Below, piece after piece: positions 6,907-36,660 of a stretch of 64,000 nt of DNA (within the stretch, counting starts at the first letter, position 1; every line of letters starts with the position of its first letter). The position numbers were made by a program, and so were the translations under genes. The notes beneath the pieces were generated by a model. It saw only the letters and a program-made list of their open reading frames with translations. It had not been told where the DNA came from and ran no database searches. The DNA is taken from IMG/VR virus record IMGVR_UViG_2711768098_000003, positions 1 to 64,000 of that record. One strand, 5' to 3'. Source of the DNA: a virus (lineage: Duplodnaviria; Caudoviricetes).

Positions 6907-7122
6907 TCAGGCCTCACTTCTAGCGATGGCGGCATTGCCCCAAAACATCGCAGTCTCTATAGCGGTGATCGCGAGAGCCTTCTCGCGACCATTGGGAACC
7001 TTGGCATCAATGAACTCCGCCAAAGCCTTACAACCAGCCCGCACCGCCTCATGAGCGGCCACCTTCTCAGGCGTATTCGCGGGATGGAAATCAAACCGAT
7101 TGTTCAAATCGCTCATATACAT
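6907..7122 (-). CDS. Acb2/Tad1-hairpin family protein (putative cyclic-nucleotide sponge)
   Basis: RF.FH......A.HE.VR...K.LA..I....P.GREKALAIT.IE.AMFW.NAAIAR. Confidence 0.7.
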   Translation of the reverse strand: MYMSDLNNRFDFHPANTPEKVAAHEAVRAGCKALAEFIDAKVPNGREKALAITAIETAMFWGNAAIARSEA

Positions 7123-19142: not shown

Positions 19143-19241
19143 GGGTGTCGTCCTGCCTTCTCCGGTGTGGTTTGGGTGCGCCCTCGTGTCGCGACCGGAG
19201 ATGCGCGGCACGAGGGCGGGTTGGTGTTCGAACAGGCGTAT

Positions 19242-19270
19242 TCGCACATACGTTCGAAAGGTGTTAAGTT
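19242..19270 (+). promoter_or_regulatory. LexA (SOS) box TCGCAC-ATAC-GTTCGA plus extended -10 TGT-TAAGTT
   Basis: One mismatch to actinobacterial consensus TCGAAC-N4-GTTCGA. Confidence 0.65.
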
Positions 19271-19329
19271 GATCTAGGTTGGGCAGCGGAGGGAAGCCGC
19301 CGCCCAGCCATCAACGACAGGAGTGCGGA

Positions 19330-19542
19330 ATGCGTGAGCGGGCCGGGAATACGCAACTGCCCAGAGTGTTCGCGGAGGTGCCTGCCATCAATGGCGATGT
19401 GGTTTCACTCGAGTCCGGCGACGTTCACGCCACGTACTGGCTGAGCATCGAAGCTGCAGACACTCGAGGGATCACAGCCCACATGACCGTGCAGCAACTC
19501 CGGCATCTCTACGTTGAGATCGGTCACGCACTGTCCATGTGA
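19330..19542 (+). CDS. Small hypothetical protein
   Basis: AGGAG RBS; downstream of SOS promoter. Confidence 0.5.
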   Translation: MRERAGNTQLPRVFAEVPAINGDVVSLESGDVHATYWLSIEAADTRGITAHMTVQQLRHLYVEIGHALSM

Positions 19543-19568
19543 ACACGGCGTGCAGGTATAAGTGACCT

Positions 19569-19997
19569 GTGAAACTCCGTCATGCCGGTGTAGGTGTCGT
19601 GTTGGCTGCGCTTGCTGTGTGCGGGTCGTGCAGTAGCCGGGAGCCGGTTGCGGTTGCAACGTTCGATCCGTCGACTGCAACGTCCACCACCACTGCTGCA
19701 GCGACTGCGACTGGTGAGCCGTCGACTGTGACACGCCCCGCCGAGAAGCGGACCGTCGACTCCGAGACGATGAGCACACCGCAGACGGAACCCGTTTTGA
19801 GTGGTGACGTCGACCGCGACACGATGTGCCGGGATATCGAGACGTTCCGCTCAGGATGGGAAGAATTCACGGGCGAAAAGATGTCGACAGCAGAGGCTGC
19901 AGCCGCGATCTTGGGGCAATACGAGGAGCCACTCAAGCGCGGTGAAACGTCACTCGCCGAGTTCCAAGCCGTGCAGGCCGCTCTCGCCACCTGCTAA
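19569..19997 (+). CDS. Putative lipoprotein
   Basis: Basic N-terminus, hydrophobic stretch, Cys, Thr/Ala linker. Confidence 0.6.
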   Translation: MKLRHAGVGVVLAALAVCGSCSSREPVAVATFDPSTATSTTTAAATATGEPSTVTRPAEKRTVDSETMSTPQTEPVLSGDVDRDTMCRDIETFRSGWEEFTGEKMSTAEAAAAILGQYEEPLKRGETSLAEFQAVQAALATC

Positions 19998-19999
19998 CT

Positions 20000-20028
20000 T
20001 CGCACACCTGTTCGATCAGTGTTAGGTT
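20000..20028 (+). promoter_or_regulatory. LexA (SOS) box TCGCAC-ACCT-GTTCGA plus extended -10 TGT-TAGGTT, leaderless
   Basis: Same geometry as the 19242 site; ATG 6 nt after -10. Confidence 0.65.
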
Positions 20029-20034
20029 TCGGGG

Positions 20035-20265
20035 ATGGAACCGCTCTACCGCCGCGGAGACCGTTGGATCGAACTCGCACCCACACACTGCCCAATCGGA
20101 CACAACCTGGTCGGCGGCAACGTCCTCGTCGGCTCACACGTCTGTAGCTGCGACATCCACCACCATCGGACACATCGCTGTCGAGAATGCGAAGCCATCA
20201 CCTACACCCCACCACTTACCGAGCACTGCAGGGATGCCGCATTCGACGGGCGAGGCCGATCGTAA
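20035..20265 (+). CDS. Small Cys/His zinc-binding protein
   Basis: P..CP.GH.L.....LVG...C.C...H....C..C. Confidence 0.7.
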   Translation: MEPLYRRGDRWIELAPTHCPIGHNLVGGNVLVGSHVCSCDIHHHRTHRCRECEAITYTPPLTEHCRDAAFDGRGRS

Positions 20266-20275
20266 AGTGACTGGC

Positions 20276-20416
20276 ATGACGTTCACGCCTAAACCGGATG
20301 AGGGGCAAGCGGGCCTCGTTCTACTCCCCGATGGCCGCTACGGCTTCCGCTACCCGGAATCCGATGACGTGATCATCATGAAGAAGCCTGAGGAGTACGT
20401 TCCGCCTGAGGATTAG
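20276..20416 (+). CDS. Small hypothetical protein
   Basis: 46-aa ORF converging on recombinase. Confidence 0.35.
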   Translation: MTFTPKPDEGQAGLVLLPDGRYGFRYPESDDVIIMKKPEEYVPPED

Positions 20417-21333
20417 GCGACGGCGCCGAGGTATGCGGCAACCGAATGTGATGCGTGCGTGTCCAGGTTGCGTCGGCCCCGGTCATAGATTCGTATGGTC
20501 GTGGATATGTCTGCGTGGCGCATCGCCAACTGCACTTCACGCAGTGGGACGCCAGCGTCGATCGCATTGACGCAGAAACTGTGCCGGAACGTGTGCGGTG
20601 ACACGTTCATTTGAATGCCGGTTTTGCGGACGATGCGTTTCGCGACGCGGTCGGCGGAGTGGCGGGTCATGCGTGTGCCGTCGCGGCGTAGCAGTAGAGC
20701 ACCGGTTTTGCGGTCGCCGATTGCACGGTCGATAGCGCGCATGACGACGGGTGGCTGCGGTGCAACTGCGATCTCGCCGCCCTTCTGCACGAACTGCATG
20801 ATGCGGTGGCCTTGCGAGTAGGACGTCACGTTTTCGACGTCCAGGCTGCACGCCTCCGACACGCGTAGCCCGGTGTAGCCCATGATGACCAGCAGCGCGT
20901 AGTCGGTTGCCGAGGATTCGTAGGCTTGATGGCAGACGGCCTGCATCTCGTTGCGGTCGAGGTGGATCTTCTCCCCTACGACTTGCCGGATCTTCGGCAT
21001 TTTGAGGAGTCTCGCCGGGTTTTTGGTGATGCAGTCGTCGTCGAGTGCGATCTCGTAGAACAGTCGGAGTGTGCCGATACGGTGCGAGATGGTGGATGGG
21101 CTGTTGCGGCGCTCGTCGGCGAGGTAACGCATGTACACCTCGATGTGTTGGCGACGGGCGTCGAACACGTGGAGTCCGTGTCCGTCGCACCACCGCCGAT
21201 ACATCTTGAGGTCGTCGCGGTATGAGATTTGGGTGTTGCCGTCCCATCGCATGAGGAATGCTTCGCAGAACAGGTCGAGGGAGAGTGCGTCTCGTCCGGT
21301 GTGCGGGATGGTGATGTCCAGTGCTGCGGTCAC
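20413..21333 (-). CDS. Tyrosine recombinase, XerC/D-like (no arm-binding domain)
   Basis: TGLRVSE, KGG, HTFRH, RHADISTT..Y catalytic set; 306 aa. Confidence 0.9.
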   Translation of the reverse strand: MTAALDITIPHTGRDALSLDLFCEAFLMRWDGNTQISYRDDLKMYRRWCDGHGLHVFDARRQHIEVYMRYLADERRNSPSTISHRIGTLRLFYEIALDDDCITKNPARLLKMPKIRQVVGEKIHLDRNEMQAVCHQAYESSATDYALLVIMGYTGLRVSEACSLDVENVTSYSQGHRIMQFVQKGGEIAVAPQPPVVMRAIDRAIGDRKTGALLLRRDGTRMTRHSADRVAKRIVRKTGIQMNVSPHTFRHSFCVNAIDAGVPLREVQLAMRHADISTTIRIYDRGRRNLDTHASHSVAAYLGAVA

Positions 21334-21419
21334 GGTTGGAGAAGCTAGCAGCGTTTGCGTGTTGGCTTCCTAGTCAAATCTCAGATACCCACTTGGTGTT
21401 ATGTGCCGCTTCGATCGCC

Positions 21420-21465
21420 TGACAGAAACGTGACAATCGCCTGTTAACTGTCACGTTCTCTGTCA
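21420..21465. repeat. Inverted repeat upstream of recombinase
   Basis: TGACAGAAACGTGACA-N13-TGTCACGTTCTCTGTCA. Confidence 0.7.
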
Positions 21466-21475
21466 TGCTGACCGG

Positions 21476-21688
21476 ATGCTCTACTGGATTCTCGGCGGTG
21501 TCGCCGTTTGGGTCGTCATCGCCGTGATCGCGGTGTACTGGCTTGGGCGGACCATCTCGCACACCGACCTCGAAGAATCCGCCGCCGAGCTTCGACGAGC
21601 CGAGCGAACCGACCAGGCGCACGGTGCTACGCGGCCACTACGACCTTCAGATCATCGAGCACAAGGGAGTCGGAAGACGCTGAGTTGA
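21476..21688 (+). CDS. Small membrane protein
   Basis: N-terminal TM helix. Confidence 0.5.
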   Translation: MLYWILGGVAVWVVIAVIAVYWLGRTISHTDLEESAAELRRAERTDQAHGATRPLRPSDHRAQGSRKTLS

Positions 21689-24600
21689 ATCCCGCGATTC
21701 CGACGAGTGCGCCAGTGAGCACGTCGGTGTCTGTGGCGGAGTAGACAACGGTCCCGTTCTTCAGCAGTTGCAGCGCAGACCCAACCACCCGCACACCTAC
21801 CGTGTCGCCGTCCGCCAACGGGAAAGACGATCCCGAGAAGGTCGTGGTCGTGGACCCGACCCGCTTGCGTAGATCGAACGCAGCCGACCCGATCCGAAGG
21901 CGGATGGAGGTGGAGTTCCCGGCCTGCCGCCTGACATCGAGGTACACCGACGTTCCAGTCGAAGCGGGGCGGGTGACGACCTTGACCGATGCTTCGACGT
22001 CCGAAGACGGCATCGGCGCTGTGGCGGACGGGGCCTCCCCTGCCACCAGTGACAGCGTGAGCGCACCGTTGACGGTGTATCGACCGAGAGGCGTGGCCGT
22101 CCACGAGGCCGCGGTGCCGCCTGCGTTCGAGTCCGTCGATCGACCGTTGAGTTCTCCCGTACCGGAGAATCCATCACTGAGCACCGTGGTGCCTATGGCC
22201 GGATTGCCGAGCACGTCGACCCATCCGAGTTCGAGCAGCTTCGCACCGACGAGCTTGGCGACTGCGTTGTACCCGGTGTACGACAGGTGCGCATCGTCGT
22301 CCGCCAACGACGGGGGCATGACGCCGTTGGCCTGAGCGGCGAGGTCCGCGGACGTGGGTGTGATACCGGTGTCGGTCCACACCTTCGATCCGGTGATGTA
22401 CGCGCCGACGTCGAGGTACTTGTCCCCGTACGTCTGCCGGTACACCTCGTTCACGCGGGCAGTCTGCGCGACACGATCGGCTGCCCAGTTCTGATTGCAG
22501 AAGTGACCCAGGACCAGCCGGCGTTTGGCGAAAGCGCCGACCTGCTTCCAATGCTTCGCGGTGTAGTCGACGACCCTCTTCTCCTCCTCGGCGCTGAGCG
22601 TTCCGAGGTTGTTCTTACCGACCCACAGCAGGGCCGCATTGTCGCGGCGAGTGACTCCGACCGACGAGAGGAACGGAGCCGGTGCTGCGACCGCGACAGC
22701 GCTCCCCGACGTCGTGCGGGTGAAGGTGTACCCCGGCGTCGGGGTGGCGGTGTACGCCAGGGTTCCCGCGATACCTGCCAGGGTGCCGTCGATGGTGACG
22801 GTGGAGTACACCGGAAAACTGTTGGCGATGGTGACCGCTACCGACCCCGACGCGGGAATCGATCCACCGACCGGCTGCACGAGAACGGGAACCGCGTTGG
22901 CCTTGGCTGCCGAGTGTTGGATCTCCTCGCCGCCGATGCCCTGCGAGTAGACCGGGATGCCGAGTACCGACTGCAGTGCACCCTGAGACACGAGACGCTG
23001 AGCGCTCGACGAACCCCACACCGCGACACCAGGGGCAGGTTGCACCGGCGAGACGTACCCAGTCGTGAGGTCGATGCACAGCCATGTCCCGGCCGTGTTG
23101 TGAAACAGCGCGAAATCGCCGATGACTGCGGGGGTGTCGGTGATGTCGAGGCCGGTGGCGATCTGCTTTTCCGCTGCACCGTTGGCGAAGTTGGTCGCGT
23201 AGAGGGTCGACCCGTCCCGCCTGACGATGAAACGGTTGGCATCGACGGGCACTGCGGGGGTCTGCCATGCGACACCGGTGCCGGTCTTGGCGAGTACCTG
23301 CCCAGTCGCACCGCCCGCGGGAGTCGTCAGCTTCGAGTCGACGTCGATCGGCCCGGACATGATCTCGGAGGACGTCGCGACTGCGATTCCCTTCGACGCG
23401 ATGTAGTCGATGAGAGCCGTGAAGTCGGCGACGGACCAGGAGTTGACACTGCCGGTGCTGTCGAGGGTGTGGAAGACGAGGTTGATCCAGCACTTTTCGG
23501 TGGTCGCGGAGTCGACGAGTGCTTTCGCCGAGGCGAGGTCACGGCTACTTCCCAACGCGGCCGCGGGTACCGCCCAGCGTGCAGCGGCAGGTAGCTGCGA
23601 GTGTCGTCCGTCGTTGGTGCGGGCGAATCCGTAGTACTGCGAGACCAGGCGTTGCAACGGTGCGTCGAAGTTGCCTACCGGGTAGGCGAACGCGGACGAC
23701 TCCACGCCGAGGCTGCGCTGCCACTGCCGCAACTGCGTGAGCATCGTACGGACCTCGGCCTCGGGTATGCCGACTCGGGACGCGTGTTCACCGGCTGTCA
23801 TGCAGTGTCCGCCGACGTCCCATCCGTGAGCGTCATGGAGCGTGCGCACCTGCGCCTCGGTGAGGTAACTCGGACCCGATCCCACACGTGAGACCACCGG
23901 GTACAGGGTGGCGCGGTAGCCGTACTTTCCGAGAACCTGGCGGGCGACCGTCCACGCTTCGATGTAACTGTCGTCGAAGTCGATGCTGACCACGCCGTTC
24001 GGGAATCGTGAGTCCCCCTCGACGTAGGTCGCGACCCCGCCCAGCTTGAGTCCGACTGTATTGCCGGATCCGATGTCTCGGACGCTCACCTGGGCGGTGG
24101 TCAGACCGACGCGGAGGGGCGCTCCTGAGCTGACGGAGAAGTTCGCCCAGGGGATGATGAGCGGTACCCACTCGTTCTCGCGGAGGGACGACTTGCCGCC
24201 CGAGGGTACCGAGACGGTCGCGCGCCACGAATCGGTCATGGCCGACGTCGTCGCGAGGTAGACGTCGAAGGTCGACAGGTTTTGCATGTTGACGGCTTTG
24301 ACCCAGAGCACGAGGCCGCGGCCGTTCATGTCCAGGTTCAGGCTGACGTTCTTCAATCCAGCGGTGGCCCCGTCTCCGAGGGTGACCGTGGAGATGCAGC
24401 GAGTTCCGATTGCGAAGTCTGTGGTGTCCGATGGTGTGGGGGTCTGCGCGCCCACTCCGCCCCAGCCGTGGGCTGCGGCCTGGAACGGACTGATGATGGT
24501 GGTGCGCGGCCAGAAGCGGGGCGAAGGCGCGGGTGGGGAGACGATCGAAGTCGACGCATAACGGGTATTACTGAGTTCACGTTCCTGATCGAGGATCACG

Positions 24601-24719
24601 TTCAACTCAGCAACGTCAACCGCATCCTCAATACCCGCCTCAATACGATTGAGCTCCTCCGCAGTAATCGGAGTCGACGTATCAGGCTTGTTCTTCCATA
24701 GCTTTCGAATGAATGCCAA
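21627..24719 (-). CDS. Multidomain virion-associated enzyme: NodB polysaccharide deacetylase, SGNH hydrolase and beta-sandwich domains
   Basis: W.N.PD.STPITAE.LNRIE.GI N-terminus; FDD, GGH...H, FAYPVG, LVFH; GSS, G.GG, GKNN, DDAH. Confidence 0.8.
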   Translation of the reverse strand: MAFIRKLWKNKPDTSTPITAEELNRIEAGIEDAVDVAELNVILDQERELSNTRYASTSIVSPPAPSPRFWPRTTIISPFQAAAHGWGGVGAQTPTPSDTTDFAIGTRCISTVTLGDGATAGLKNVSLNLDMNGRGLVLWVKAVNMQNLSTFDVYLATTSAMTDSWRATVSVPSGGKSSLRENEWVPLIIPWANFSVSSGAPLRVGLTTAQVSVRDIGSGNTVGLKLGGVATYVEGDSRFPNGVVSIDFDDSYIEAWTVARQVLGKYGYRATLYPVVSRVGSGPSYLTEAQVRTLHDAHGWDVGGHCMTAGEHASRVGIPEAEVRTMLTQLRQWQRSLGVESSAFAYPVGNFDAPLQRLVSQYYGFARTNDGRHSQLPAAARWAVPAAALGSSRDLASAKALVDSATTEKCWINLVFHTLDSTGSVNSWSVADFTALIDYIASKGIAVATSSEIMSGPIDVDSKLTTPAGGATGQVLAKTGTGVAWQTPAVPVDANRFIVRRDGSTLYATNFANGAAEKQIATGLDITDTPAVIGDFALFHNTAGTWLCIDLTTGYVSPVQPAPGVAVWGSSSAQRLVSQGALQSVLGIPVYSQGIGGEEIQHSAAKANAVPVLVQPVGGSIPASGSVAVTIANSFPVYSTVTIDGTLAGIAGTLAYTATPTPGYTFTRTTSGSAVAVAAPAPFLSSVGVTRRDNAALLWVGKNNLGTLSAEEEKRVVDYTAKHWKQVGAFAKRRLVLGHFCNQNWAADRVAQTARVNEVYRQTYGDKYLDVGAYITGSKVWTDTGITPTSADLAAQANGVMPPSLADDDAHLSYTGYNAVAKLVGAKLLELGWVDVLGNPAIGTTVLSDGFSGTGELNGRSTDSNAGGTAASWTATPLGRYTVNGALTLSLVAGEAPSATAPMPSSDVEASVKVVTRPASTGTSVYLDVRRQAGNSTSIRLRIGSAAFDLRKRVGSTTTTFSGSSFPLADGDTVGVRVVGSALQLLKNGTVVYSATDTDVLTGALVGIAGFNSASSDSLVLDDLKVVVAA

Positions 24720-24806
24720 AACGATGTCCTATCAATAAGATCGAGTGGCAGCTATGGGCTGCCCCACGCCTAACCCACGCTGCAACTACTACGGGTAGAC
24801 GTCGGA

Positions 24807-24831
24807 GCCGGGGAGAACGCTGCTCCCCGGC
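24807..24831 (-). terminator. Hairpin after major tail gene
   Basis: GCCGGGGAG-N7-CTCCCCGGC. Confidence 0.55.
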
Positions 24832-27113: not shown

Positions 27114-27545
27114 TTATGCGAACCAGGCTGCGATCGTCTTGGTTTTGACGCCTTTGAGCTCGTCGGCGGTTTTGCCGTTGGCGAGGGCGTAGGCGATCCA
27201 TTCGTCGCGGTCGTCCTGCCCAGTGCCGGTAGGCTTCGGATGCAGAATTTCAGCGAGTTCGCTGTTCAACGTTTCGACAGCCTGCGGAGTCTTGTCTTCC
27301 GCTGCGAGTTCGCTTTTCAGTTCAGCGAGTGTTTCGGCGGCTTCGACGTGCGCATCGGCTAGTCCAGTGGCAGCACTGTCCACGGTTTCGGTGGCGCGAA
27401 CCACGACCGCGTCAGCATCCACGGTTTCTGCGGGAGCGCTCAGCTCCACCACGGTGCGGGTCCAGCGGGCCAAGCCCTCGAGATGCTCGAGCTGATGCTC
27501 GGACTCGACGACCTGGCCGCTGACATTCTCGTAGCGGTAAGGCAT
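27114..27545 (-). CDS. Hypothetical capsid-associated protein
   Basis: Follows capsid gene; C-terminal W.AYA...G....EL...TK motif. Confidence 0.6.
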   Translation of the reverse strand: MPYRYENVSGQVVESEHQLEHLEGLARWTRTVVELSAPAETVDADAVVVRATETVDSAATGLADAHVEAAETLAELKSELAAEDKTPQAVETLNSELAEILHPKPTGTGQDDRDEWIAYALANGKTADELKGVKTKTIAAWFA

Positions 27546-27614
27546 ACGTCAGTTCCCAGAGGGGAAGACATCGTTTCCGGGCATCAAACTGTCACCCGGA
27601 AACGACCCTTCTCC

Positions 27615-28538
27615 TCAAGCCTTGTCGTTGCCCTTGAGCAGGACCGCGCGGTTCGGATCCAACGTCTTCACACCGAACAGGGTGTCCAGCGAGACGATGG
27701 TCTCCTTGGTGTGAATGTCGTACTGGTAGGCGACGCGGATGGTGAGGCCCTTGTATGCCTGCACCGATGCGAACGAGCCGGGTGCGACGGACAGTGGCGC
27801 GGACGCGAAGCAGAACGCGGTCTCGTGGAATGCGACACCAACCTCGGTGGTCGGATCGCCGGCGAGCTGAGAGCCAACGAGCTTCGGCTGCCCGACATTC
27901 TGCGTCTGGTAGGCGTCGAAGCCGAACAGGTCATCACCGATGGATGCCTTACGGAGGGCGTCGGTGCTGTCGGAGCGGTTCGCGAACTTCAGCATATCGC
28001 TGTTGAGCCACTGCGCCTTCGTGGTCGGGCCGGTGACCGCGTTACGGCCATCGGTCGGCACGTTGCGGATGTCGAGCTGGCGGCCCGCCTCGATGAGAAC
28101 CTCAGGCTTGTTCCATTCGAAACCGGTCTGCGTGGACAGGCCTGCTTCCTGCGTGACATCGTCGCGGAGACCGAGGATCGCGCGGTCGATGTCCTGCGCG
28201 ATCGCGACCATGGCGGGGCTGAGGAGCTGCGAGTCGAAGTCCTCGATGTCGAGGGTGAGCTGCTCGGAGGTGACGGCGAACGACACATCCGAGATCTCGT
28301 CGAGCTTGACGGGGATGGACGACTCGGTTGCATTCTGCAACTCGATTCCGTTGGCCCGGTTGAAGCGCTTCGCCGTGAACACGGCGGGCTTGCGGACGTT
28401 GATCGTGTCACCGATCTTCTGCGACGTGAACTCAGTCGACAGGTCGGTGTAGACGAGGGGAACCATGACCAGCGACTCGTAGAGGGTCGCGAGTGCCTGC
28501 TTGGCGATGAGGTCAGGGGTCAGGAGAACGTTAGCCAT
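27615..28538 (-). CDS. Major capsid protein (P22 coat-like family)
   Basis: MAN.LLTP..IA..AL, GDTINVRKP, D.LFGVK.LDP. Confidence 0.88.
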   Translation of the reverse strand: MANVLLTPDLIAKQALATLYESLVMVPLVYTDLSTEFTSQKIGDTINVRKPAVFTAKRFNRANGIELQNATESSIPVKLDEISDVSFAVTSEQLTLDIEDFDSQLLSPAMVAIAQDIDRAILGLRDDVTQEAGLSTQTGFEWNKPEVLIEAGRQLDIRNVPTDGRNAVTGPTTKAQWLNSDMLKFANRSDSTDALRKASIGDDLFGFDAYQTQNVGQPKLVGSQLAGDPTTEVGVAFHETAFCFASAPLSVAPGSFASVQAYKGLTIRVAYQYDIHTKETIVSLDTLFGVKTLDPNRAVLLKGNDKA

Positions 28539-28560
28539 GTAGGGCTCCTAAAGAAGTGGG

Positions 28561-29328
28561 TTACTTGCGTCCGCGGCCGCGTCGTTCGCGGCGGGACTTG
28601 ATGAGCTCGTCGATCGACGAGTCGTCGCCGAGTGGCTTGCTAGCTCCGTTACCTGCGGACAGGTCGGCGCCGGATCGTCCGGCGGCGGGGCGGGGCTGTT
28701 CCTTACGGAACTTCGGGTTTGCCTGCAGCGCAGCGGAGACCGCGGCGTCGACTTGTGCCGTGTAGTCGGCGGCGGAATGGTCGAGGGCTGCGAGAGTCTT
28801 CGACAGTTCCTTCGAGTCGGAGAGACTGTTGAAGTCGCCGTCGTTCGCTACTGCGGCGTCACGGAGTGCGTTGTGCTCGGTGAGTTCGCGGAGGCGGCGG
28901 GCGGTTTCGGTTTCCCGTTGGGCGACGGCATCACGGTCAGCGGTGAGCTGGGCGATGATGTCTTCAGGCTTGGGTGCTTCGTCGTTGTCTTTGATGAGGC
29001 CGAGTTCGCGGCCCCACTTTTCGACGAGGCCCTGCTGTGTTTCGGCGGCAGCTTTTTCAGCGGCTTCCTTCGCAGCTTTTTCGGCCTTCTCGTTGCCTTT
29101 GACCCGTGCGGCAGCGTTTTCGCGGCGTAGCTTTTCGATTTCCTTGCGGAGGATCGCGGGGTCGTCGATGGGTTCGCTGGCGGCTGCGGCGTCCGGTTCT
29201 ACCGTTGCGGCATCGTCTGCGGCGGGTTCGACTGCGGGTTCCGGTTCCACCGTCACTGCGGGTTCGACGGCTGGTGTGGCCGCCGTTTCCGGGGTGATGT
29301 CGGTGGGGGTGACTGTGCTGTCAGACAT
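28561..29328 (-). CDS. Capsid scaffolding protein
   Basis: Acidic disordered N-terminus, I.KLR.ENA..R, coiled coil. Confidence 0.8.
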   Translation of the reverse strand: MSDSTVTPTDITPETAATPAVEPAVTVEPEPAVEPAADDAATVEPDAAAASEPIDDPAILRKEIEKLRRENAAARVKGNEKAEKAAKEAAEKAAAETQQGLVEKWGRELGLIKDNDEAPKPEDIIAQLTADRDAVAQRETETARRLRELTEHNALRDAAVANDGDFNSLSDSKELSKTLAALDHSAADYTAQVDAAVSAALQANPKFRKEQPRPAAGRSGADLSAGNGASKPLGDDSSIDELIKSRRERRGRGRK

Positions 29329-29493
29329 GTGGTGTTGCCCTTCTGCCGCGCCTGGCGGACATGAAGAAGCCCCCGGCCACTTGTGGGTGTTCGGGGGCTG
29401 CGGAAATTTGTGTGGGAGCCCTGCGTCAGGCAGGGTTTGGTGCACCGCTGCTACGGCGGCTCCAGGCCGTGTAGTGCGGAAATTTGTGGGGTG

Positions 29494-31815
29494 TTATCGG
29501 GCGGTGTTCGCTTGTTCGCGGCGTCTCGCGCGCGGCACGGTGGGGTGTGCGGCGACGTGTTCGCGGATGCGTGCTTGGAGTGCGCGGGTGCGGGCGTTCG
29601 CTTTCGTTTTCGCGGCCGGGGTGAGTGCTGCGGCGTGGCGGCGTTTGCTGGCGCGGACTTGCCGTTCCAGGTAGCGGAGTTGCTGCGACGCTTTGTAGTC
29701 GGCGGGGTCGACTGAGGGGGCGTGAGGTAAATCATCCCCAGGCGTCCATATCGACAGGCTATGCCTGCAGTTATGGGTGATAATGGAATTGGCTATATAC
29801 CAACCCTCCCCTGACTCAAGGTTGTAGACGTGACCCGAATAGTTCTGCCGCTCGACACTGACGATCTTGTCGCTCGATATCAGGCCGGGGAGAGCGCTAA
29901 AACTCTCTCCGAGATCTGCAAATGCAGCCCCGGCGCCATCTACCAACGACTCCGCAAAGCCGGTGTGCTGCGCTCTGTTTCGGATGCTGCGCAGGAACGC
30001 GCCAGCCGAGCCGCTGGGCCCGAGTGGCTGCCCGATGCTGTCCGGCTCTACAAGTCCGGGAAGTCTCAGATTGATATCGAACGCGAACTCGGCATCAAGC
30101 AATCCCTTATCAGTGCCGCTTTCAAGCGGCACGGAATAACCGTGCGGCCCGCCGACGAGAGAAACAGGATGAGATGGGCTAAGGAGACTCCCGAGGGCCG
30201 GGCTTTTCTGGTCGAATCTGCCCATAATGCCGTCCGTGGAATGGTCCGCACCGAGGCTGACTTGGCTAAACGCGCCGAGGGAAAGCAGCGCACCAAGGCG
30301 CACGCCACCGATGAAGAGACTGCCATCCTGGATGCTCTCGCCGAACGAGGAGTCGAGGGCATCGCCCAGAAGGCTGTCGGCCGTTACAACATCGACATCG
30401 CCTGTGGACCCGTCGCCGTGGAACTGTGCGGCGGCGGCTGGCACGGTCATGGGCGGCACCTCAGCCGACTGCCGCAGCGCGTCAAATACATCGCCGATGC
30501 GGGCTTCAATCAGATCTACATTTGGGCCCTTGCTGGCAGTCGAGACCTTAACGTCTCCGCTGTGGCGGATGACATCGCCGCCTACCATGAGTTCTCCTGC
30601 AGCCACCCATCCGCTCGACGTCAATATCGGGTGGTTTGGGGTAGCAGTGAGTTTGTTTCCGCTGGTTGTGTTGATGACGACTACCTCGCCGTCATACCAG
30701 CGCCGATCCGCGGCCTTAACGCCACTAGGTACTGACACTGGAGTATCGCCAGGAAAGCAGTTGGGGTGGTGCAATCCCCGGGCGCGCGCTTTCGCCACCG
30801 ACGTGACCACACGGCCACGCCACGGCTCAGTACCGCCATACGACGTCGTCGCACCCGTCACCGACAACAGATTCCCTTGAAACGGGGCGCACAAGTTCGA
30901 ACAGTTCGGGTGAATCGACACCTTCACCAAGTCGTAGCCGTAACTGGCAATCAACGTGATGTGCGCGTCGATCGCGGCCTGCGCTGTCGCAGTGCGCGTC
31001 GCCATCTCCATGTAGCTCGTCATCGACCAGTTGCGTCCGCGGGAGTCGACGAAACCGGTGATGCCGCGTTCGGCGTACCGGTCGATCAACTTTTGTGCGA
31101 GGCGAAGCCGGTCGGCTTCACTGGAGAGCGGGTTGGCGAGGACTTCGGCCATCACTTGCTGGTACATGCCTTCGGCTGCGGCGACCATGTGCGGCGCCAT
31201 CGACTCCAACTGCGGCAAGAGTGGGTTTGGTGGGCGGACGGTGACGCCTCGCGGGGTTTGCGGTGCGATTGGGGCGGTGGCGCGGAGGTCGTCGAGTGTC
31301 ATGTCGGCGGGTGCATCGGGTGCGCGGTGCCGGGGTTCTCGTGCGCGATGCCTACCGTTCGTAGGGGGTGCGTCGAGGTCGACGGGCGGCAGGGTTGATG
31401 CTGTTCGGCCACTGCGGCTACCCGGCGACGCTATTTCGGATGTATTCGGCGAACCATTCCGATCGGGCTGTGACCTGCCGCGACCTTTAGGGGATGTATC
31501 TGCGGCTCCACGGGTGCGGCGCAGCGACTCCGACGCGGTATCCACACCGACATCGGCGGCATCATCCATCGCGGCATCCGCTGCGGCACGCGTACGACGC
31601 AACATGCCACCGACATACGTGCGAACCCGTTTACGGAACGCCGCCAACCGTGTGAACTTCCCTGCCGCCGCACCCGTGATCTCAGCGAACACAGCGCCCG
31701 CAACGATGCCGATCAAAGCGAGCTCGCCCGCCGACACTTCCTCGACGACAGGATCCTCGAGGCCCTCAGTGTCATCCGACGAGACCGGTACAGCATCCTC
31801 CTCGGATGACATCAA
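29494..31815 (-). CDS. Phage minor capsid (MuF-like) protein containing an intein
   Basis: FVDSRGR.W....Y.EMA.RT, C...C.P.QG, GL.HPN|CRH split by intein, R.LER.VR..KR. Confidence 0.9.
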   Translation of the reverse strand: MMSSEEDAVPVSSDDTEGLEDPVVEEVSAGELALIGIVAGAVFAEITGAAAGKFTRLAAFRKRVRTYVGGMLRRTRAAADAAMDDAADVGVDTASESLRRTRGAADTSPKGRGRSQPDRNGSPNTSEIASPGSRSGRTASTLPPVDLDAPPTNGRHRAREPRHRAPDAPADMTLDDLRATAPIAPQTPRGVTVRPPNPLLPQLESMAPHMVAAAEGMYQQVMAEVLANPLSSEADRLRLAQKLIDRYAERGITGFVDSRGRNWSMTSYMEMATRTATAQAAIDAHITLIASYGYDLVKVSIHPNCSNLCAPFQGNLLSVTGATTSYGGTEPWRGRVVTSVAKARARGLHHPNCFPGDTPVSVPSGVKAADRRWYDGEVVVINTTSGNKLTATPNHPILTSSGWVAAGELMVGGDVIRHSGDVKVSTASKGPNVDLIEARIGDVFDALRQSAEVPPMTVPAAAAQFHGDGSTGDVDVVTADSLLGDALDSSFGESIQDGSLFIGGVRLGALLSLGAFSQVSLGADHSTDGIMGRFDQKSPALGSLLSPSHPVSLVGGPHGYSVPLESGTDKGLLDAEFAFDINLRLPGLVEPDSIGQPLGPSGSAGAFLRSIRNRAQHTGFAESLVDGAGAAFADLGESFSALPGLISSDKIVSVERQNYSGHVYNLESGEGWYIANSIITHNCRHSLSIWTPGDDLPHAPSVDPADYKASQQLRYLERQVRASKRRHAAALTPAAKTKANARTRALQARIREHVAAHPTVPRARRREQANTAR
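29770..30759 (-). other. Intein (330 aa) inserted at HPN/CRH
   Basis: Block A CFPGDTPV, block B TPNHPI...GW..A.EL..G, block F VYNL, block G THN followed by Cys+1. Confidence 0.92.
29830..30735 (+). CDS. Antisense, intein-nested HTH-HTH plus DUF559/Vsr-like endonuclease
   Basis: Y..GES...L......S...I..RLRKAGV; LY.SG.S...I..ELGI....I...F.RHGI; T.EE..I...L...G....Q..VGRY.IDIA....AVE..GG.WH...R......GF..I.IW. Confidence 0.8.
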   Translation: MTRIVLPLDTDDLVARYQAGESAKTLSEICKCSPGAIYQRLRKAGVLRSVSDAAQERASRAAGPEWLPDAVRLYKSGKSQIDIERELGIKQSLISAAFKRHGITVRPADERNRMRWAKETPEGRAFLVESAHNAVRGMVRTEADLAKRAEGKQRTKAHATDEETAILDALAERGVEGIAQKAVGRYNIDIACGPVAVELCGGGWHGHGRHLSRLPQRVKYIADAGFNQIYIWALAGSRDLNVSAVADDIAAYHEFSCSHPSARRQYRVVWGSSEFVSAGCVDDDYLAVIPAPIRGLNATRY

Positions 31816-31830
31816 AGGGCCTCTTTCCAG

Positions 31831-33399
31831 TTAGGCGGCCGTCTCGAACTCGGTGTCGTCAGTGCCCCCGAAGTCGCCGCCGGAAGAGAACGAGTTTTCG
31901 TCCTTCATCTCCTGCTTGATGCGGGCCACTTCATCGTCCTGTTCATCCGTCGACCAGTTCGGGTTGCGCTCCTTCACGGCCTGTTCGATAGACATGGCGT
32001 TCGCAGTCCGCAACGTGGCGATAGACGCCGACAGTTCGGCAGGCGACTGCGTCGAGCGAGTCGGGAACTTCAACTCAGGGAGCTCCGACAATGCGATGCC
32101 AGTGCCGAACAGTTCGGCATCGATGTCCATCGCAGTCTTCGCGAGCGGCCGCAACCCGGCCTTCCAATAGTTGATTTTCTTGTCGCGGGTGCGTTCGGAC
32201 AGCTTGTCTTTTGAGTTCACTTCGGTGGCGGTGGGAACGCCCACGGTGAGGCTCGAGTCGGAGAAGTTGTTCGACGACAGGCCGGCGCCACGCAGGATCG
32301 CGTTGAGTATTTCCGCGCACGTCTGCGAATGCTCTTGCCAGCGGATCGCGAACTGGTTTGCTTGCACCGATGATGCGGCGCCACCGGATGCGTCACCGAG
32401 CTGCTCGCGCAGCGGCGTGAAGATCGCCTGGTCGGAGTCGAACATGCCGCCCTTGCCGGGGCCACTGTTGATGAGGAGGCCTTCGTCGACGAACAAACGT
32501 GCTTTGCCGAGGTCCAGGTCACGCATCCACGACGTGTATGCCTCATCCAATGCGTCGAACAGTTGCTCGAGGCCGTCGAAGTCGGAGCGCCCCAACTGGG
32601 TGAGACCTGGTTTGGTGCGCCACCGCCGGTTCGGGCGGACGTTCGGCACATACGATGCCGTTAACTCGTCGACACCGGTCAGGATGGCGCCGTCCTGGTC
32701 GACTGCATTCGCGGCCCATTCGGTGGCATCAACCTCGGTTAACGGCACCTTCCGGCCCAGATGGCCTTGGTCGCCTTGGTAGAGGCCGTGGATGATCCGT
32801 CCGGATTCGTGACGCTCCAAATGGCGTAGCACGATACCGTTGTCATCCAGCACGGTTGTCCAGAACGTGACTGCTGTCAGATGGTTGTACGTCCACGTTG
32901 GGATCGCGGCATCCGCGGCGACCGCGCCGATCATCACATGGTCGGCGATACGGTCATCCCACCACAAACGGTTGTAGGTGCCGCCGAGCGCCGAACAGAT
33001 TTCCGCGGACTCCAGGAATGTGGAGGCAGCCTCATCTGAGTTGAACATCAAGTCGAGGCGCTTAGTTGCAGCATCACCTGCAGCGGTGTCGTCTTCGGCG
33101 ATCGCGAACTTCGGTGGCTGCGAAAACAGGAGGTCTGCGCTCGACCGGGCGAGGTCAGCGGCGGCGGGGATGTGCAGTTTCGACGATGACTGCAGGTTGG
33201 GGCGGCCCCAAAAGAATTTGGCGAGGCGGCCCATGATGCCGCCGGGCATGACGGTTTGCCGCATCATGTTATTGCTGGCGTAGATGGTTTCGAGGTCTGC
33301 GGGGCTGCCGGTGTACCAGGCGTTCCATGTTTTGAAGTCTTTTTGTGCTTCGTCGAATGGTTTGGGCGGGAATTGGCCCCCGGCATCTGGTAGCGCCAC
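31831..33399 (-). CDS. Portal protein
   Basis: W.AWY.G, LHIP.A.D.A..SADLLF, LGRSDF, TATEV. Confidence 0.9.
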   Translation of the reverse strand: MALPDAGGQFPPKPFDEAQKDFKTWNAWYTGSPADLETIYASNNMMRQTVMPGGIMGRLAKFFWGRPNLQSSSKLHIPAAADLARSSADLLFSQPPKFAIAEDDTAAGDAATKRLDLMFNSDEAASTFLESAEICSALGGTYNRLWWDDRIADHVMIGAVAADAAIPTWTYNHLTAVTFWTTVLDDNGIVLRHLERHESGRIIHGLYQGDQGHLGRKVPLTEVDATEWAANAVDQDGAILTGVDELTASYVPNVRPNRRWRTKPGLTQLGRSDFDGLEQLFDALDEAYTSWMRDLDLGKARLFVDEGLLINSGPGKGGMFDSDQAIFTPLREQLGDASGGAASSVQANQFAIRWQEHSQTCAEILNAILRGAGLSSNNFSDSSLTVGVPTATEVNSKDKLSERTRDKKINYWKAGLRPLAKTAMDIDAELFGTGIALSELPELKFPTRSTQSPAELSASIATLRTANAMSIEQAVKERNPNWSTDEQDDEVARIKQEMKDENSFSSGGDFGGTDDTEFETAA

Positions 33400-36587: not shown

Positions 36588-36660
36588 TGGCTGACCCGCC
36601 ACGAATCGAACGTGGGTCTCCCATGCCTAGGATGCTCTATGCCAGTTGAGCTACGGGTCA
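36588..36660 (-). ncRNA. tRNA-like RNA lacking a canonical anticodon loop
   Basis: Acceptor TGACCCG/CGGGTCA, D arm GCTC/GAGC, T arm CCACG-TTCGATT-CGTGG, G73 plus CCA; anticodon arm TCCTA-GGCA-TGGGA. Confidence 0.8.

What the first reader, a model, noticed from the sequence alone, without database searches (positions are those of the whole stretch)
29770..30759. Intein whose putative homing endonuclease is encoded antisense, nested inside the intein
Seen: the minor capsid gene has a 330-aa intein with intact splicing blocks (CFPGDT, TPNH, VYNL, HN/C). Its roughly 230-aa centre has no LAGLIDADG or HNH motif and reads like the antisense shadow of another gene. The opposite strand carries a 301-codon ORF (29830-30735) wholly within the intein and codon-in-register. 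It encodes two tandem HTH-like repeats and a DUF559/Vsr-like nuclease (TDEE...Q..VGRYNIDIA...AVELCGGGWH...R...GF..IYIW), and it overlaps both splicing halves, so both strands are stop-free over about 900 bp. Known: canonical inteins carry the endonuclease in frame between the Hint halves, and Vsr-like (EDxHD) enzymes can act as homing endonucleases. Inference: this is a bidirectionally coded selfish element. Splicing protects the host gene, while the nuclease is made from its own antisense transcript, uncoupled from late capsid expression and possibly available during replication. Caveat: the usual ExDG and RD acids are ELCG and RL here, so activity is unproven. I do not recall this architecture being described, but I cannot check the literature.
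Basis: partly seen in the sequence, partly recalled or inferred. Interest (0 to 1): 0.92.

Follow-up and report, generated by a model that had tools for sequence, protein, structure and literature searches.

The report
Intein with backwards-encoded homing endonuclease
A self-splicing insert (intein) in a phage head-assembly gene carries its DNA-cutting mobility enzyme as a separate gene on the opposite strand; the layout is real and widespread, but a 2025 preprint has already described it.

Summary
The MuF/minor-capsid gene (29494-31815, minus strand) holds a 330-codon class-1 intein (29770-30759). A 301-codon plus-strand ORF (29830-30735) lies inside it, codon-in-register.

The plus-strand ORF is a real gene, not a high-GC shadow:
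- 82 of 83 related loci (GC 40-73%) keep the same nested, in-register layout.
- Selection favours the nuclease frame in the centre and the Hint frame at both ends.
- The sense-frame centre is predicted disordered.

The nuclease gene appears to carry its own expression signals inside Hint blocks F/G. These are an ATG/GTG start opposite a His codon, a Shine-Dalgarno opposite Asn-Leu-Gln/Glu codons, and often a TATAAT opposite Ile-Ile/Val codons. All three are held by strongly biased synonymous codons. No RNA evidence was available.

The architecture is not new. bioRxiv 10.1101/2025.01.02.630785 describes "anti-sense VSR-like" endonucleases in actinophage inteins, including minor capsid genes. 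This scan has also flagged the same kind on other DNA (e1-3440232, e1-3444396).

I did not find three things in the parts of that preprint I read: the embedded signals, the spread into phages of Proteobacteria, and two free-standing derivatives.

The parts
29494..31815 (-). MuF-like minor capsid (head morphogenesis) gene, one continuous 773-codon ORF that includes the intein
   Evidence: Listed as an ORF. Matches Pfam PF06152 at 2e-35 and PHROG 581 at 6.9e-56. The intein-less homologues in Gordonia phages Cafasso and VanLee align on both sides of the insert.
29770..30759 (-). Class-1 intein of 330 codons, inserted between Asn and Cys of the MuF motif HHPN|CRH
30550..30759 (-). Hint N-lobe (intein residues 1-70), with Cys1 and block B TPNH (30631-30642). 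The same DNA encodes nuclease residues 241-301 on the plus strand.
   Evidence: pLDDT 89-98. C1, T40 and H43 are invariant in 53 inteins. In this stretch the sense frame is the more constrained one.
29920..30375 (-). Sense-frame linker (intein residues 129-280), predicted disordered. It is the shadow of the nuclease gene.
   Evidence: pLDDT 29-42. Sense-frame column identity is 0.13-0.23, against 0.22-0.47 for the nuclease frame. Omega is higher for the sense frame than for the nuclease frame in 7 of 7 pairs.
29770..29892 (-). Hint C-lobe (intein residues 290-330; blocks F and G, ending THN). It carries the plus-strand expression signals.
   Evidence: pLDDT 90-98. G309, H310, V311, Y312 and L314 are nearly invariant and N330 is invariant.
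29830..30735 (+). Homing endonuclease gene: 301 codons, GTG start, antisense to the intein and codon-in-register with it
   Evidence: Listed. 37 database homologues with E down to 1.8e-71. tblastn finds 120 phage records. AF2 mean pLDDT 85.8.
29857..30129 (+). Two tandem helix-turn-helix units (nuclease residues about 10-43 and 67-100)
   Evidence: A profile of the family matches PDB 2lvs (tandem HTH, a CRISPR repeat binding protein) at E 5.6e-10 over positions 11-93. Pfam gives HTH_7 at residues 11-43 and HTH_28 at 70-95. Helices appear in the model.
30298..30669 (+). Vsr-like (PD-(D/E)xK superfamily) nuclease domain, residues 157-280. Conserved D189 (30394-30396), E198 (30421-30423) and H205 (30442-30444).
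29830..29832 (+). GTG start codon, the reverse complement of the His codon in block F (GHVYNL)
   Evidence: 59 of 64 relatives have ATG or GTG at the aligned codon. The sense His codon is CAT in 51 of 59, against a 25% background.
29818..29821 (+). Shine-Dalgarno-like AAGG, 8 nt before the start. It is made by the sense Asn-Leu codons of block F.
   Evidence: GGAGG, GAGG, GGAG or AAGG lies at -12/-13 in most relatives. The sense Leu codon is CTC or CTT in 56 of 59, against a 39% background. An SD is present in 19 of 20 sequence clusters.
29779..29784 (+). Candidate -10 promoter hexamer GATAAT (5 of 6 to TATAAT), opposite the Ile-Ile codons of block G
   Evidence: At the aligned place, 36 of 63 relatives match TATAAT at 5 of 6 or better, 16 match perfectly, and 22 have TGn upstream. 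The sense codons there are the rare NTA or ATT. Function is inferred. The window has no -35, and the consensus scan found no full sigma-70 site.

Best explanation
This is a mobile intein made of two genes written on the two strands of one 990-bp insert.

On the minus strand, the insert is translated as part of the MuF head-morphogenesis protein. Its two ends (intein residues 1-70 and 290-330) fold into a Hint domain. That domain splices the insert out and rejoins HHPN to CRH. The roughly 150 residues between them are a disordered tether with no function of their own.

On the plus strand, the same codon triplets read backwards encode a 301-residue homing endonuclease. It has two HTH DNA-binding units, a helical linker and a Vsr-like nuclease.

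The endonuclease is made from its own message. The start codon, the Shine-Dalgarno and, in many relatives, a -10 promoter box lie opposite the codons for Hint blocks F and G. Its expression therefore does not depend on the late head operon that runs the other way.

By analogy with I-Bth0305I and other homing endonucleases, it should cut the empty HPNC|R(C/H) site of a co-infecting intein-less phage. Repair from the intein-bearing copy then spreads the whole insert.

Shown here: gene structure, folds, family-wide conservation, strand-specific selection, synonymous-site constraint on the signals, and empty alleles in the nearest relatives. Inferred: transcription, nuclease activity, target site, and splicing.
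For: Architecture:
- There is one continuous host ORF with a clean 330-codon insertion at HPN|C, compared with intein-less Cafasso and VanLee MuF.

Hint fold:

Nuclease:
- A family profile hits 3hrl and 3r3p at 1.2e-4 and the tandem HTH of 2lvs at 5.6e-10.
- Y186, N187, D189, E198 and R217 are present in 66 of 66 sequences and H205 in 60 of 66. All are present in the window.
- D189 aligns with D196 and H205 with H213 of I-Bth0305I, two of its named active-site residues.

Conservation of the layout:
- 82 of 83 loci examined have the nuclease match nested in a long opposite-strand ORF, always in register, at GC 39.7-73.3%. These were 80 IMG/VR loci plus 3 GenBank loci, giving 65 distinct sequences after one free-standing locus and exact duplicates were removed.
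- In the 15 loci at 39.7-56.5% GC, the chance of an open frame is 7e-3 to 9e-10.
- Pseudomonas, Klebsiella and Aggregatibacter phage records are also nested antisense.

Selection in 7 independent pairs:
- In the centre, omega is 0.14-0.66 for the nuclease frame and 0.50-1.05 for the sense frame. The nuclease value is lower in 7 of 7 pairs. Differences at nuclease codon positions 1/2/3 are 269/183/355.
- In the Hint overlaps the pattern reverses: 76/24/52 and 38/4/18.

Signals:
- ATG or GTG at the aligned site in 59 of 64 sequences. Sense His is CAT in 51 of 59 (background 25%). Sense Leu is CTC in 50 of 59 (background 30%).
- TATAAT matched at 5 of 6 or better in 36 of 63. The sense Ile/Val codon ends in A in 32 of 52 (background 8.7%).
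- Per cluster: start in 18 of 20, SD in 19 of 20, -10 in 12 of 19.

Literature:
Against: There is no direct evidence of transcription, translation, cleavage or splicing.

Promoter:
- The window's own -10 candidate is only 5 of 6 (GATAAT, lacking T1) and has no TGn and no -35.
- The consensus scan found 0 promoter-like sites in 28500-31900.
- Only 12 of 19 clusters keep a good -10 at the fixed place.

Catalytic residues:
- The family lacks a conserved acid where I-Bth0305I has D222 (Vsr D97). The window has L214 there and the column is variable.
- Window residue 200 is Cys, where 48 of 66 sequences have Phe. No other sequence has Cys there.

Thresholds and statistics:
- The Pfam nuclease hit is below the curated cut-off (20.9 against 38.2 bits).
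- The closest relative of the window's nuclease is about 50% identical, so selection was measured on relatives and not on this copy.
- The sequences are related, so the binomial p-values overstate independence.
- In the window alone, antisense openness has a chance probability of about 0.03, which is not negligible.
Confidence: 0.85

Rival explanations
1. In this particular phage the plus-strand ORF is a dead relic. It is open only because a 61% GC genome rarely produces stops in that antisense frame. The intein persists by vertical descent without homing.
For: The chance of openness in the window is about 0.03, not tiny. Another long antisense ORF (372 aa) overlies the capsid gene. The window has a unique Cys at position 200, a 5-of-6 -10 box and a GTG start. 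The preprint notes that some VSR-like cases look vertically inherited.
Against: The window keeps every residue that is invariant in the family, plus H205. It also keeps the SD and a start codon at the conserved place. The model folds with pLDDT 85.8. The nearest related phages carry empty sites, which suggests recent gain or loss.
Confidence: 0.07
2. The antisense protein is expressed but is not, or not only, a homing enzyme. It could be a site-specific nuclease or DNA binder used in competition between phages (marker exclusion). Alternatively, its antisense RNA could regulate MuF.
For: Free-standing relatives survive without any intein, next to an intact MuF gene (L058; Acinetobacter phage BUCT629). 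They sit inside clades of nested forms. So the nuclease gene has a life of its own. The antisense message would be fully complementary to the MuF mRNA.
Against: Being free-standing next to the target gene is itself typical of homing endonuclease genes (my own knowledge of T4 seg/mob genes). In 82 of 83 loci the gene is tied to an intein at one and the same MuF site. This is the signature of homing.
Confidence: 0.06
3. The similarity of the plus-frame translations is only a shadow of conservation in the sense (intein) frame. On this reading the sense-frame FHGDG...VDVV segment is the functional one.
For: The sense frame shows nearly invariant H114, G115, D116 and G117. Intein residues 83-128 reach pLDDT 66-87.
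Against: Central omega is lower for the plus frame in 7 of 7 pairs, and substitutions peak at plus-frame third positions. The plus frame hits HTH and nuclease families and solved structures, while the sense centre is disordered. In free-standing L058 the plus-frame protein is kept while the opposite frame is full of stops.
Confidence: 0.02

Closest known systems
Inteins with an 'anti-sense VSR-like HEN' in actinobacteriophages (Gosselin, Arsenault and Gogarten, bioRxiv 10.1101/2025.01.02.630785). I read the abstract and sections 8, 15 and 28, plus found passages. The supplements are closed.
   Different: In the text I read they say the second ORFs typically lie outside the splicing domain. Here the ORF overlaps about 20 codons of the C-lobe and about 60 of the N-lobe. 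The words promoter, ribosom-, start codon and Salmonella do not occur in their main text. The embedded signals and the spread beyond actinophages may therefore be additions. I could not check whether this very phage is in their Supplemental Table 1.
I-Bth0305I and the EDxHD family of homing endonucleases (Taylor et al. 2011, PMC3239194; found passages read)
   Same: Two N-terminal HTH-like DNA-binding repeats followed by a C-terminal Vsr-like nuclease. Equivalents of D196 (window D189) and H213 (window H205) are conserved. It is a phage-borne mobile element.
   Different: I-Bth0305I sits in a group I intron and is read on the same strand as its host gene. The equivalent of its D222 is not conserved here (L214). 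This family has a conserved Glu (E198), as DUF559 proteins do. Sequence similarity is marginal (E 1.2e-4 with a profile).
Fractured genes: split inteins with a free-standing Vsr-like or GIY-YIG endonuclease gene between the halves (Dassa et al. 2009, PMC2677866; found passages read)
   Same: A separate Vsr-like endonuclease gene with its own signals occupies the endonuclease slot of an intein in phage genes. Its coding sequence overlaps intein coding sequence.
   Different: There the host gene is broken into two ORFs and the endonuclease lies on the same strand. Here the host ORF is unbroken, because the endonuclease lies antisense and in register. In 2009 that paper stated that Vsr-like endonucleases were not known in inteins.
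Antisense or out-of-frame LAGLIDADG endonuclease in the cyanobacterial dnaX intein (cited as Gorbalenya 1998 in the 2025 preprint; also bioRxiv 10.64898/2026.09.14.751524, abstract and outline only)
   Same: The endonuclease is a second ORF inside the intein rather than an in-frame domain.
   Different: It belongs to a different nuclease family (LAGLIDADG), a different host gene and a cellular genome.

Membership tests
Class-1 intein (Hint domain) | Cys/Ser at position 1, block B T-x-x-H, penultimate His and terminal Asn, and a Cys/Ser/Thr as the first C-extein residue | tested here: met
   C1, T40 and H43, H329-N330, and +1 Cys are all present. C1, T40, H43 and N330 are invariant in 53 related inteins.
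Class-1 intein (Hint domain) | [quoted passage not shown] | tested here: met
Class-1 intein (Hint domain) | In-frame insertion at a conserved host site, with intein-less alleles in relatives | tested here: met
   There is a clean 330-residue insertion at HPN|C relative to Cafasso and VanLee MuF. In 60 of the 66 non-redundant sequences (window included) the aligned intein begins with Cys, and in 63 of 66 it ends in Asn followed by Cys; R-C or R-H follows that Cys in most.
Class-1 intein (Hint domain) | Protein splicing activity | not testable with these tools
   This needs expression of the precursor.
Vsr-like / PD-(D/E)xK nuclease fold (Vsr, DUF559) | Core alpha-beta fold superposable on Vsr | tested here: met
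Vsr-like / PD-(D/E)xK nuclease fold (Vsr, DUF559) | Metal-binding Asp on the first core strand (Vsr D51) | tested here: met
   D189 is present in 66 of 66 sequences. It aligns with residue 196 of 3r3p, which is Asp in the wild-type enzyme and equals Vsr D51 according to PMC3239194.
EDxHD homing endonucleases (I-Bth0305I) | The five motif residues E170, D196, N208 (the x position), H213 and D222 | tested here: not met
   The D196 and H213 equivalents are conserved (D189 in 66 of 66; H205 in 60 of 66). The D222 equivalent is L214 in a variable column. The E170 equivalent is aligned but poorly conserved in my alignment. The protein works like this family, but I do not file it as a member.
EDxHD homing endonucleases (I-Bth0305I) | Two N-terminal HTH/NUMOD-like repeats ahead of the nuclease | tested here: met
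   Tandem HTH units: 2lvs at E 5.6e-10 over positions 11-93, Pfam HTH hits at residues 11-43 and 70-95, and helices in the model.
Pfam REase_MTES_1575 (PF18741) / DUF559 (PF04480) | Score at or above Pfam's gathering threshold | tested here: not met
   The window protein scores 20.9 bits against a cut-off of 38.2. Precomputed PF18741 hits are listed for 19 of the 37 homologues and PF04480 for 2, but their scores were not shown.
Anti-sense VSR-like HEN inteins (2025 preprint) | A contiguous intein, a Vsr-like endonuclease ORF on the opposite strand within it, and a host frame that stays open | tested here: met
   Described.
Fractured gene with split intein (Dassa 2009) | Host gene split into two ORFs, each ending or starting with an intein half | tested here: not met
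   There is a single 773-codon ORF with no stop.
Homing endonuclease (functional class) | Site-specific cleavage of the element-free allele, and unidirectional gene conversion | not testable with these tools
   Only indirect support was found: empty alleles in the nearest relatives and the same insertion site across distant phages.

The most novel reading that the evidence does not exclude
About 60 nt of the intein's most conserved splicing blocks (F and G) carry several layers of information at once. On one strand they encode the residues that finish protein splicing. On the other strand they encode the -10 promoter box, the Shine-Dalgarno and the start codon of the endonuclease gene. Further in, the nuclease's C-terminal helix and hairpin are co-encoded with Hint block B.

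This compact two-strand design would let one element colonise the MuF genes of phages from Actinobacteria to Gammaproteobacteria. It would also allow the endonuclease gene to escape, at least twice, as a free-standing gene beside an intein-less MuF.

I did not find the embedded-signal layer in the parts of the 2025 preprint that I read.
Probability: 0.55. Interest if true: 0.6.

Novelty: new member of a known kind. Interest (0 to 1): 0.42.

Why it matters
The finding shows in detail how a selfish element can pack two genes and their control signals into one stretch of DNA without breaking an important phage gene.

Annotation pipelines mostly miss the second gene. Only 1 of the 6 nested GenBank records I opened annotates it.

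The family is large: 425 IMG/VR loci and 120 GenBank phage records. It spans very different hosts, so it offers many natural variants of a little-studied class of site-specific nuclease, all aimed at one conserved site.

The predicted sigma-70-type extended -10 promoters in coliphage and Salmonella phage copies make the expression hypothesis easy to test in standard laboratory strains.

Tried and rejected
- Megablast of the MuF gene against GenBank phages found nothing.
- The consensus promoter scan found no two-hexamer sigma-70 site in 28500-31900. It cannot see -10-only promoters.
- The look-up of sequencing runs listed no RNA holder. Read laying was therefore not used, and expression stays untested.
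- GC by codon position did not discriminate between the strands.
- PMC8966425 held nothing relevant: its 'opposite strand' refers to a cleavage site.
- Dassa 2009 has no antisense case.
- Jerseyvirus paper PMC8425127 mentions the intein-containing capsid morphogenesis protein. In the 3 passages shown for my search on the word 'intein', it does not mention an antisense gene.
- A second IMG/VR scan with the free-standing L058 protein returned only itself.
- There is no second copy of the nuclease in the 84.5-kb genome (best other tblastn E 0.98).
- I first took the conserved nuclease motif RQYRVVWG to be a mere shadow of Hint block B. The free-standing L058 keeps the motif (EYKVIWG) while its opposite frame is full of stops, so it belongs to the nuclease as well.
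- I could not decide from these data whether intein residues 83-128 (pLDDT 66-87) are part of the Hint fold. Only 107 residues aligned to mini-inteins.
- Alignment A1 used 35 of the 37 homologues; P0006 and P0009 were left out.
- L058 was left out of the codon alignment. Exact duplicates were collapsed, giving 66 sequences from 84.
- For the fold of the sense intein I used 53 of 66 sequences. I dropped GenBank-derived loci and those with unclear ends or an internal stop.
- The preprint's supplements (the list of phages and predicted structures) are closed. I cannot say whether this phage is among their 63 non-canonical inteins.
Full report
WHAT IS THERE

The window belongs to an 84,516-bp single-contig genome of 61.5% GC. 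Its portal protein is 55-58% identical to those of 84-87-kb Gordonia phages such as Cafasso and VanLee, so this is an actinobacteriophage.

The minus-strand ORF 29494..31815 (773 aa) is a MuF-like minor capsid gene (Pfam PF06152 at 2e-35, PHROG 581 at 6.9e-56). Aligned with the intein-less MuF proteins of Cafasso and VanLee, it shows a clean 330-residue insertion between Asn and Cys of the motif HPNC|RH.

The insert (29770..30759) has all the class-1 intein residues: Cys1, TPNH at 40-43, THN at the end and Cys at +1.

The plus-strand ORF 29830..30735 (301 codons, GTG start) lies wholly inside the insert and uses the same codon triplets in reverse.

IS THE PLUS-STRAND ORF MORE THAN A HIGH-GC ARTEFACT?

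Openness alone is weak evidence. In this antisense frame a stop arises only from the sense codons TTA, CTA and TCA, which are rare here. From the extein codon usage, the chance of 301 open codons is about 0.03. A 372-aa antisense ORF overlies the capsid gene next door.

Four other lines of evidence are decisive.

1. Homology.
- 37 database proteins match with E down to 1.8e-71. Many carry precomputed HTH and PF18741 or PF04480 nuclease hits.
- tblastn finds 120 GenBank phage records.
- A pattern scan finds 425 IMG/VR loci, of which the best 80 were kept.

2. Layout.
- In 82 of 83 loci examined, the match lies inside a long opposite-strand ORF, always in the same register, at GC from 39.7% to 73.3%.
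- For the 15 loci at 39.7-56.5% GC, the chance of an open frame is 7e-3 to 9e-10.
- Of 10 of these host ORFs scanned with Pfam, 8 hit a MuF-type family (one of them, L083, 0.5 bits below the curated cut-off) and 8 hit the intein splicing domain.
- In 60 of the 66 non-redundant sequences the aligned intein begins with Cys, and in 63 of 66 it ends in Asn followed by Cys; R-C or R-H follows that Cys in most. This is one and the same insertion site.
- GenBank records from Gordonia, Escherichia, Salmonella, Pseudomonas, Klebsiella and Aggregatibacter phages have the match antisense to the annotated head gene.

3. Fold.
- With a 36-sequence alignment, AlphaFold2 gives mean pLDDT 85.8.
- A family profile hits 3hrl and 3r3p at 1.2e-4. 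It hits the tandem HTH protein 2lvs at 5.6e-10 over positions 11-93.

4. Selection.
- On a codon alignment of 66 distinct sequences, the nuclease frame is the better conserved frame in the centre. The sense frame is the better conserved frame at both ends.
- In 7 independent pairs of 70-95% nucleotide identity, central omega is 0.14-0.66 for the nuclease frame against 0.50-1.05 for the sense frame (lower in 7 of 7). Substitutions peak at nuclease third positions (269/183/355).
- Over the Hint overlaps the pattern reverses (76/24/52 and 38/4/18), and omega is lower for the sense frame in 5 of 6 and 4 of 5 informative pairs; one further pair in the C-lobe overlap gave equal values.
- Selection therefore changes strand along the insert.

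CATALYTIC RESIDUES

In the 66 sequences, Y186, N187, D189, E198 and R217 are invariant. W204 is present in 63 of 65 and H205 in 60 of 66. The window has all of them.

The family motif is YNIDIA...AVE-x-(F/Y/L)-GGGWH.

The 3R3P crystal is a D196A/H213A mutant. In the profile alignment, D189 falls on position 196 and H205 on position 213. These equal Vsr D51 and H69 according to that paper.

The fifth EDxHD residue (D222, Vsr D97) aligns with L214 in a variable column. I therefore say the protein works like an EDxHD/Vsr-like enzyme, but I do not file it in that family. Whether E198, or D223 (Asp in 45 and Asn in 17 of 66), supplies the missing acid is untested.

EXPRESSION SIGNALS INSIDE THE SPLICING BLOCKS

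An earlier first-reader note on this genome (e1-6222248) pointed to GATAAT and AAGG ahead of the GTG. I tested that idea on the relatives.

Start codon:
- The start is the reverse complement of the His codon in block F (G-H-V-Y-N-L).
- 59 of 64 sequences have ATG (51) or GTG (8) at that aligned codon.
- The sense His codon is CAT in 51 of 59, against 25% in the exteins of the same loci.

Shine-Dalgarno:
- Twelve to thirteen nt upstream, most sequences have GGAGG, GAGG, GGAG or AAGG, made by the sense codons Asn/Asp-Leu-Gln/Glu.
- The Leu codon is CTC in 50 and CTT in 6 of 59, against 30% and 9% background.

Promoter:
- Opposite the two residues before (T/V)-H-N in block G, 36 of 63 sequences match TATAAT at 5 of 6 or better. 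16 match perfectly, 52 keep A2 and T6, and 22 have TGn in front.
- The sense codons there are the rare ATA or GTA in 32 of 52 (background 8.7%) and ATT in 34 of 52 (background 17%).
- GC content drops to 0.29-0.42 in two islands upstream of the start, against a locus mean of 0.62.
- In five low-GC or divergent loci (L046, L051, L074, L080, L083), I read TTGACA, a 17-nt spacer and a TATAAT-like hexamer (perfect in three) shifted one island downstream. I read this by eye from the sequences printed.

Counted per cluster at 50% amino-acid identity, the start is present in 18 of 20, the SD in 19 of 20 and the -10 in 12 of 19.

The window has GTG (29830), AAGG (29818-29821) and GATAAT (29779-29784). 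This is a weaker version, and the two-hexamer scan found nothing.

These are sequence inferences. No RNA run was listed. The binomial p-values ignore relatedness, although synonymous sites should be saturated at 30-50% protein identity.

TRUE DOUBLE CODING

With h + s = 311 linking nuclease residue h and intein residue s, the nuclease ORF overlaps the confident Hint C-lobe by about 20 codons and the N-lobe by about 60.

The Vsr superposition runs to residue 280. It therefore includes a helix (242-258) and a hairpin (265-280) that are encoded opposite intein residues 31-70, block B included. RQYRVVWG on one strand is TPNHPILT on the other.

The free-standing relative L058 keeps EYKVIWG although its opposite frame has many stops. 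The hairpin therefore belongs to the nuclease and is not just a shadow.

The preprint text I read says the second ORFs typically lie outside the splicing domain. Here they do not.

FREE-STANDING RELATIVES

L058 and Acinetobacter phage BUCT629 (L090) carry a homologous gene that is not nested. In each it converges on, and slightly overlaps, the 3' end of a short intein-less MuF-like gene. Those genes end just after HPNCRC (L058) or LPMCKC (L090).

In a quick maximum-likelihood tree (71 rows, central columns only, midpoint root), each sits inside a well-supported clade of nested forms (SH-aLRT 99 and 97). This suggests two escapes from inteins.

The sample is biased towards relatives of a nested query and the tree is unrooted, so the direction remains open.

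LITERATURE

A 2026 preprint treats the dnaX case (10.64898/2026.09.14.751524; abstract and outline only).

Dassa et al. 2009 described same-strand Vsr-like genes between split-intein halves. They stated that Vsr-like endonucleases were then unknown in inteins.

My searches found no paper on the embedded promoter, SD and start, or on the antisense gene in Jerseyvirus or Kagunavirus inteins. Subscription journals and supplements are not covered.

This scan has also reported the same kind on other DNA (e1-3440232 in a phage head gene, e1-3444396 in TerL). I did not test those reports.

VERDICT

The mechanism is that of a homing intein whose endonuclease is a separately expressed antisense gene. 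The kind is already described, so this is a new member of a known kind.

I rate interest as moderate. What may be additional is the evidence that the splicing blocks double as the nuclease gene's promoter, ribosome-binding site and start, the reversal of selection along the insert, the spread far beyond actinophages, and the free-standing derivatives.

Noticed in passing
L058:2875-4354 (IMG/VR locus) and L090:1621-3221 (Acinetobacter phage BUCT629): These are free-standing homologues of the nuclease gene. Each converges on, and overlaps by a few bases, the 3' end of a short intein-less MuF-like gene. In a quick tree both sit inside clades of intein-nested forms.
   Followed up: partly
window 27483-28601 (+) over 27615-28538 (-): A 372-aa antisense ORF covers the putative major capsid gene. 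It looks like an ordinary high-GC shadow ORF and shows that long antisense ORFs occur by chance in this window. I did not test it for homology.
   Followed up: no
L046, L051, L074, L080, L083 (about 30-70 nt upstream of the nuclease start): These loci have TTGACA, a 17-nt spacer and a TATAAT-like hexamer (perfect in three) on the nuclease strand within block G codons. The element is shifted by one AT-rich island relative to the -10 of the main group. In three of the five (L046, L051, L083) the start lies two codons further down.
   Followed up: partly
L023:1549-2355: The sense frame has an internal stop near the intein N-terminus, and the nuclease match breaks off at residue 206. This may be a decaying copy or an assembly error.
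   Followed up: no
L022:2887-6837 and L060:1918-4494: The host ORFs differ in build. In L022 one open stop-to-stop stretch shows portal, NUDIX and MuF domains ahead of the intein. L060 has a VG15-like N-terminus and a C-terminal ADP-ribosyltransferase-type domain after the intein.
   Followed up: no
GenBank records opened: Only 1 of 6 records with the nested layout annotates the antisense gene (Salmonella phage PK2, XRA40007.1, as a hypothetical protein). The Snoke record annotates the intein but not the nuclease.
   Followed up: yes
Gordonia phages Affeca and Angelicage, MuF genes (H3-H5): My tblastn finds Vsr-like antisense matches in these MuF genes. The preprint's discussion names Affeca and 'Angelicase' in a sentence about endonuclease VII-like inteins. 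They may carry more than one intein, or the wording may be loose. This is not resolved.
   Followed up: no
window 36588-36660, 19150-24830, 6907-7122 and others: Other first-reader notes on this genome were shown: a tRNA-like element, a recombinase island and an Acb2/Tad1-like ORF. I did not examine them.
   Followed up: no
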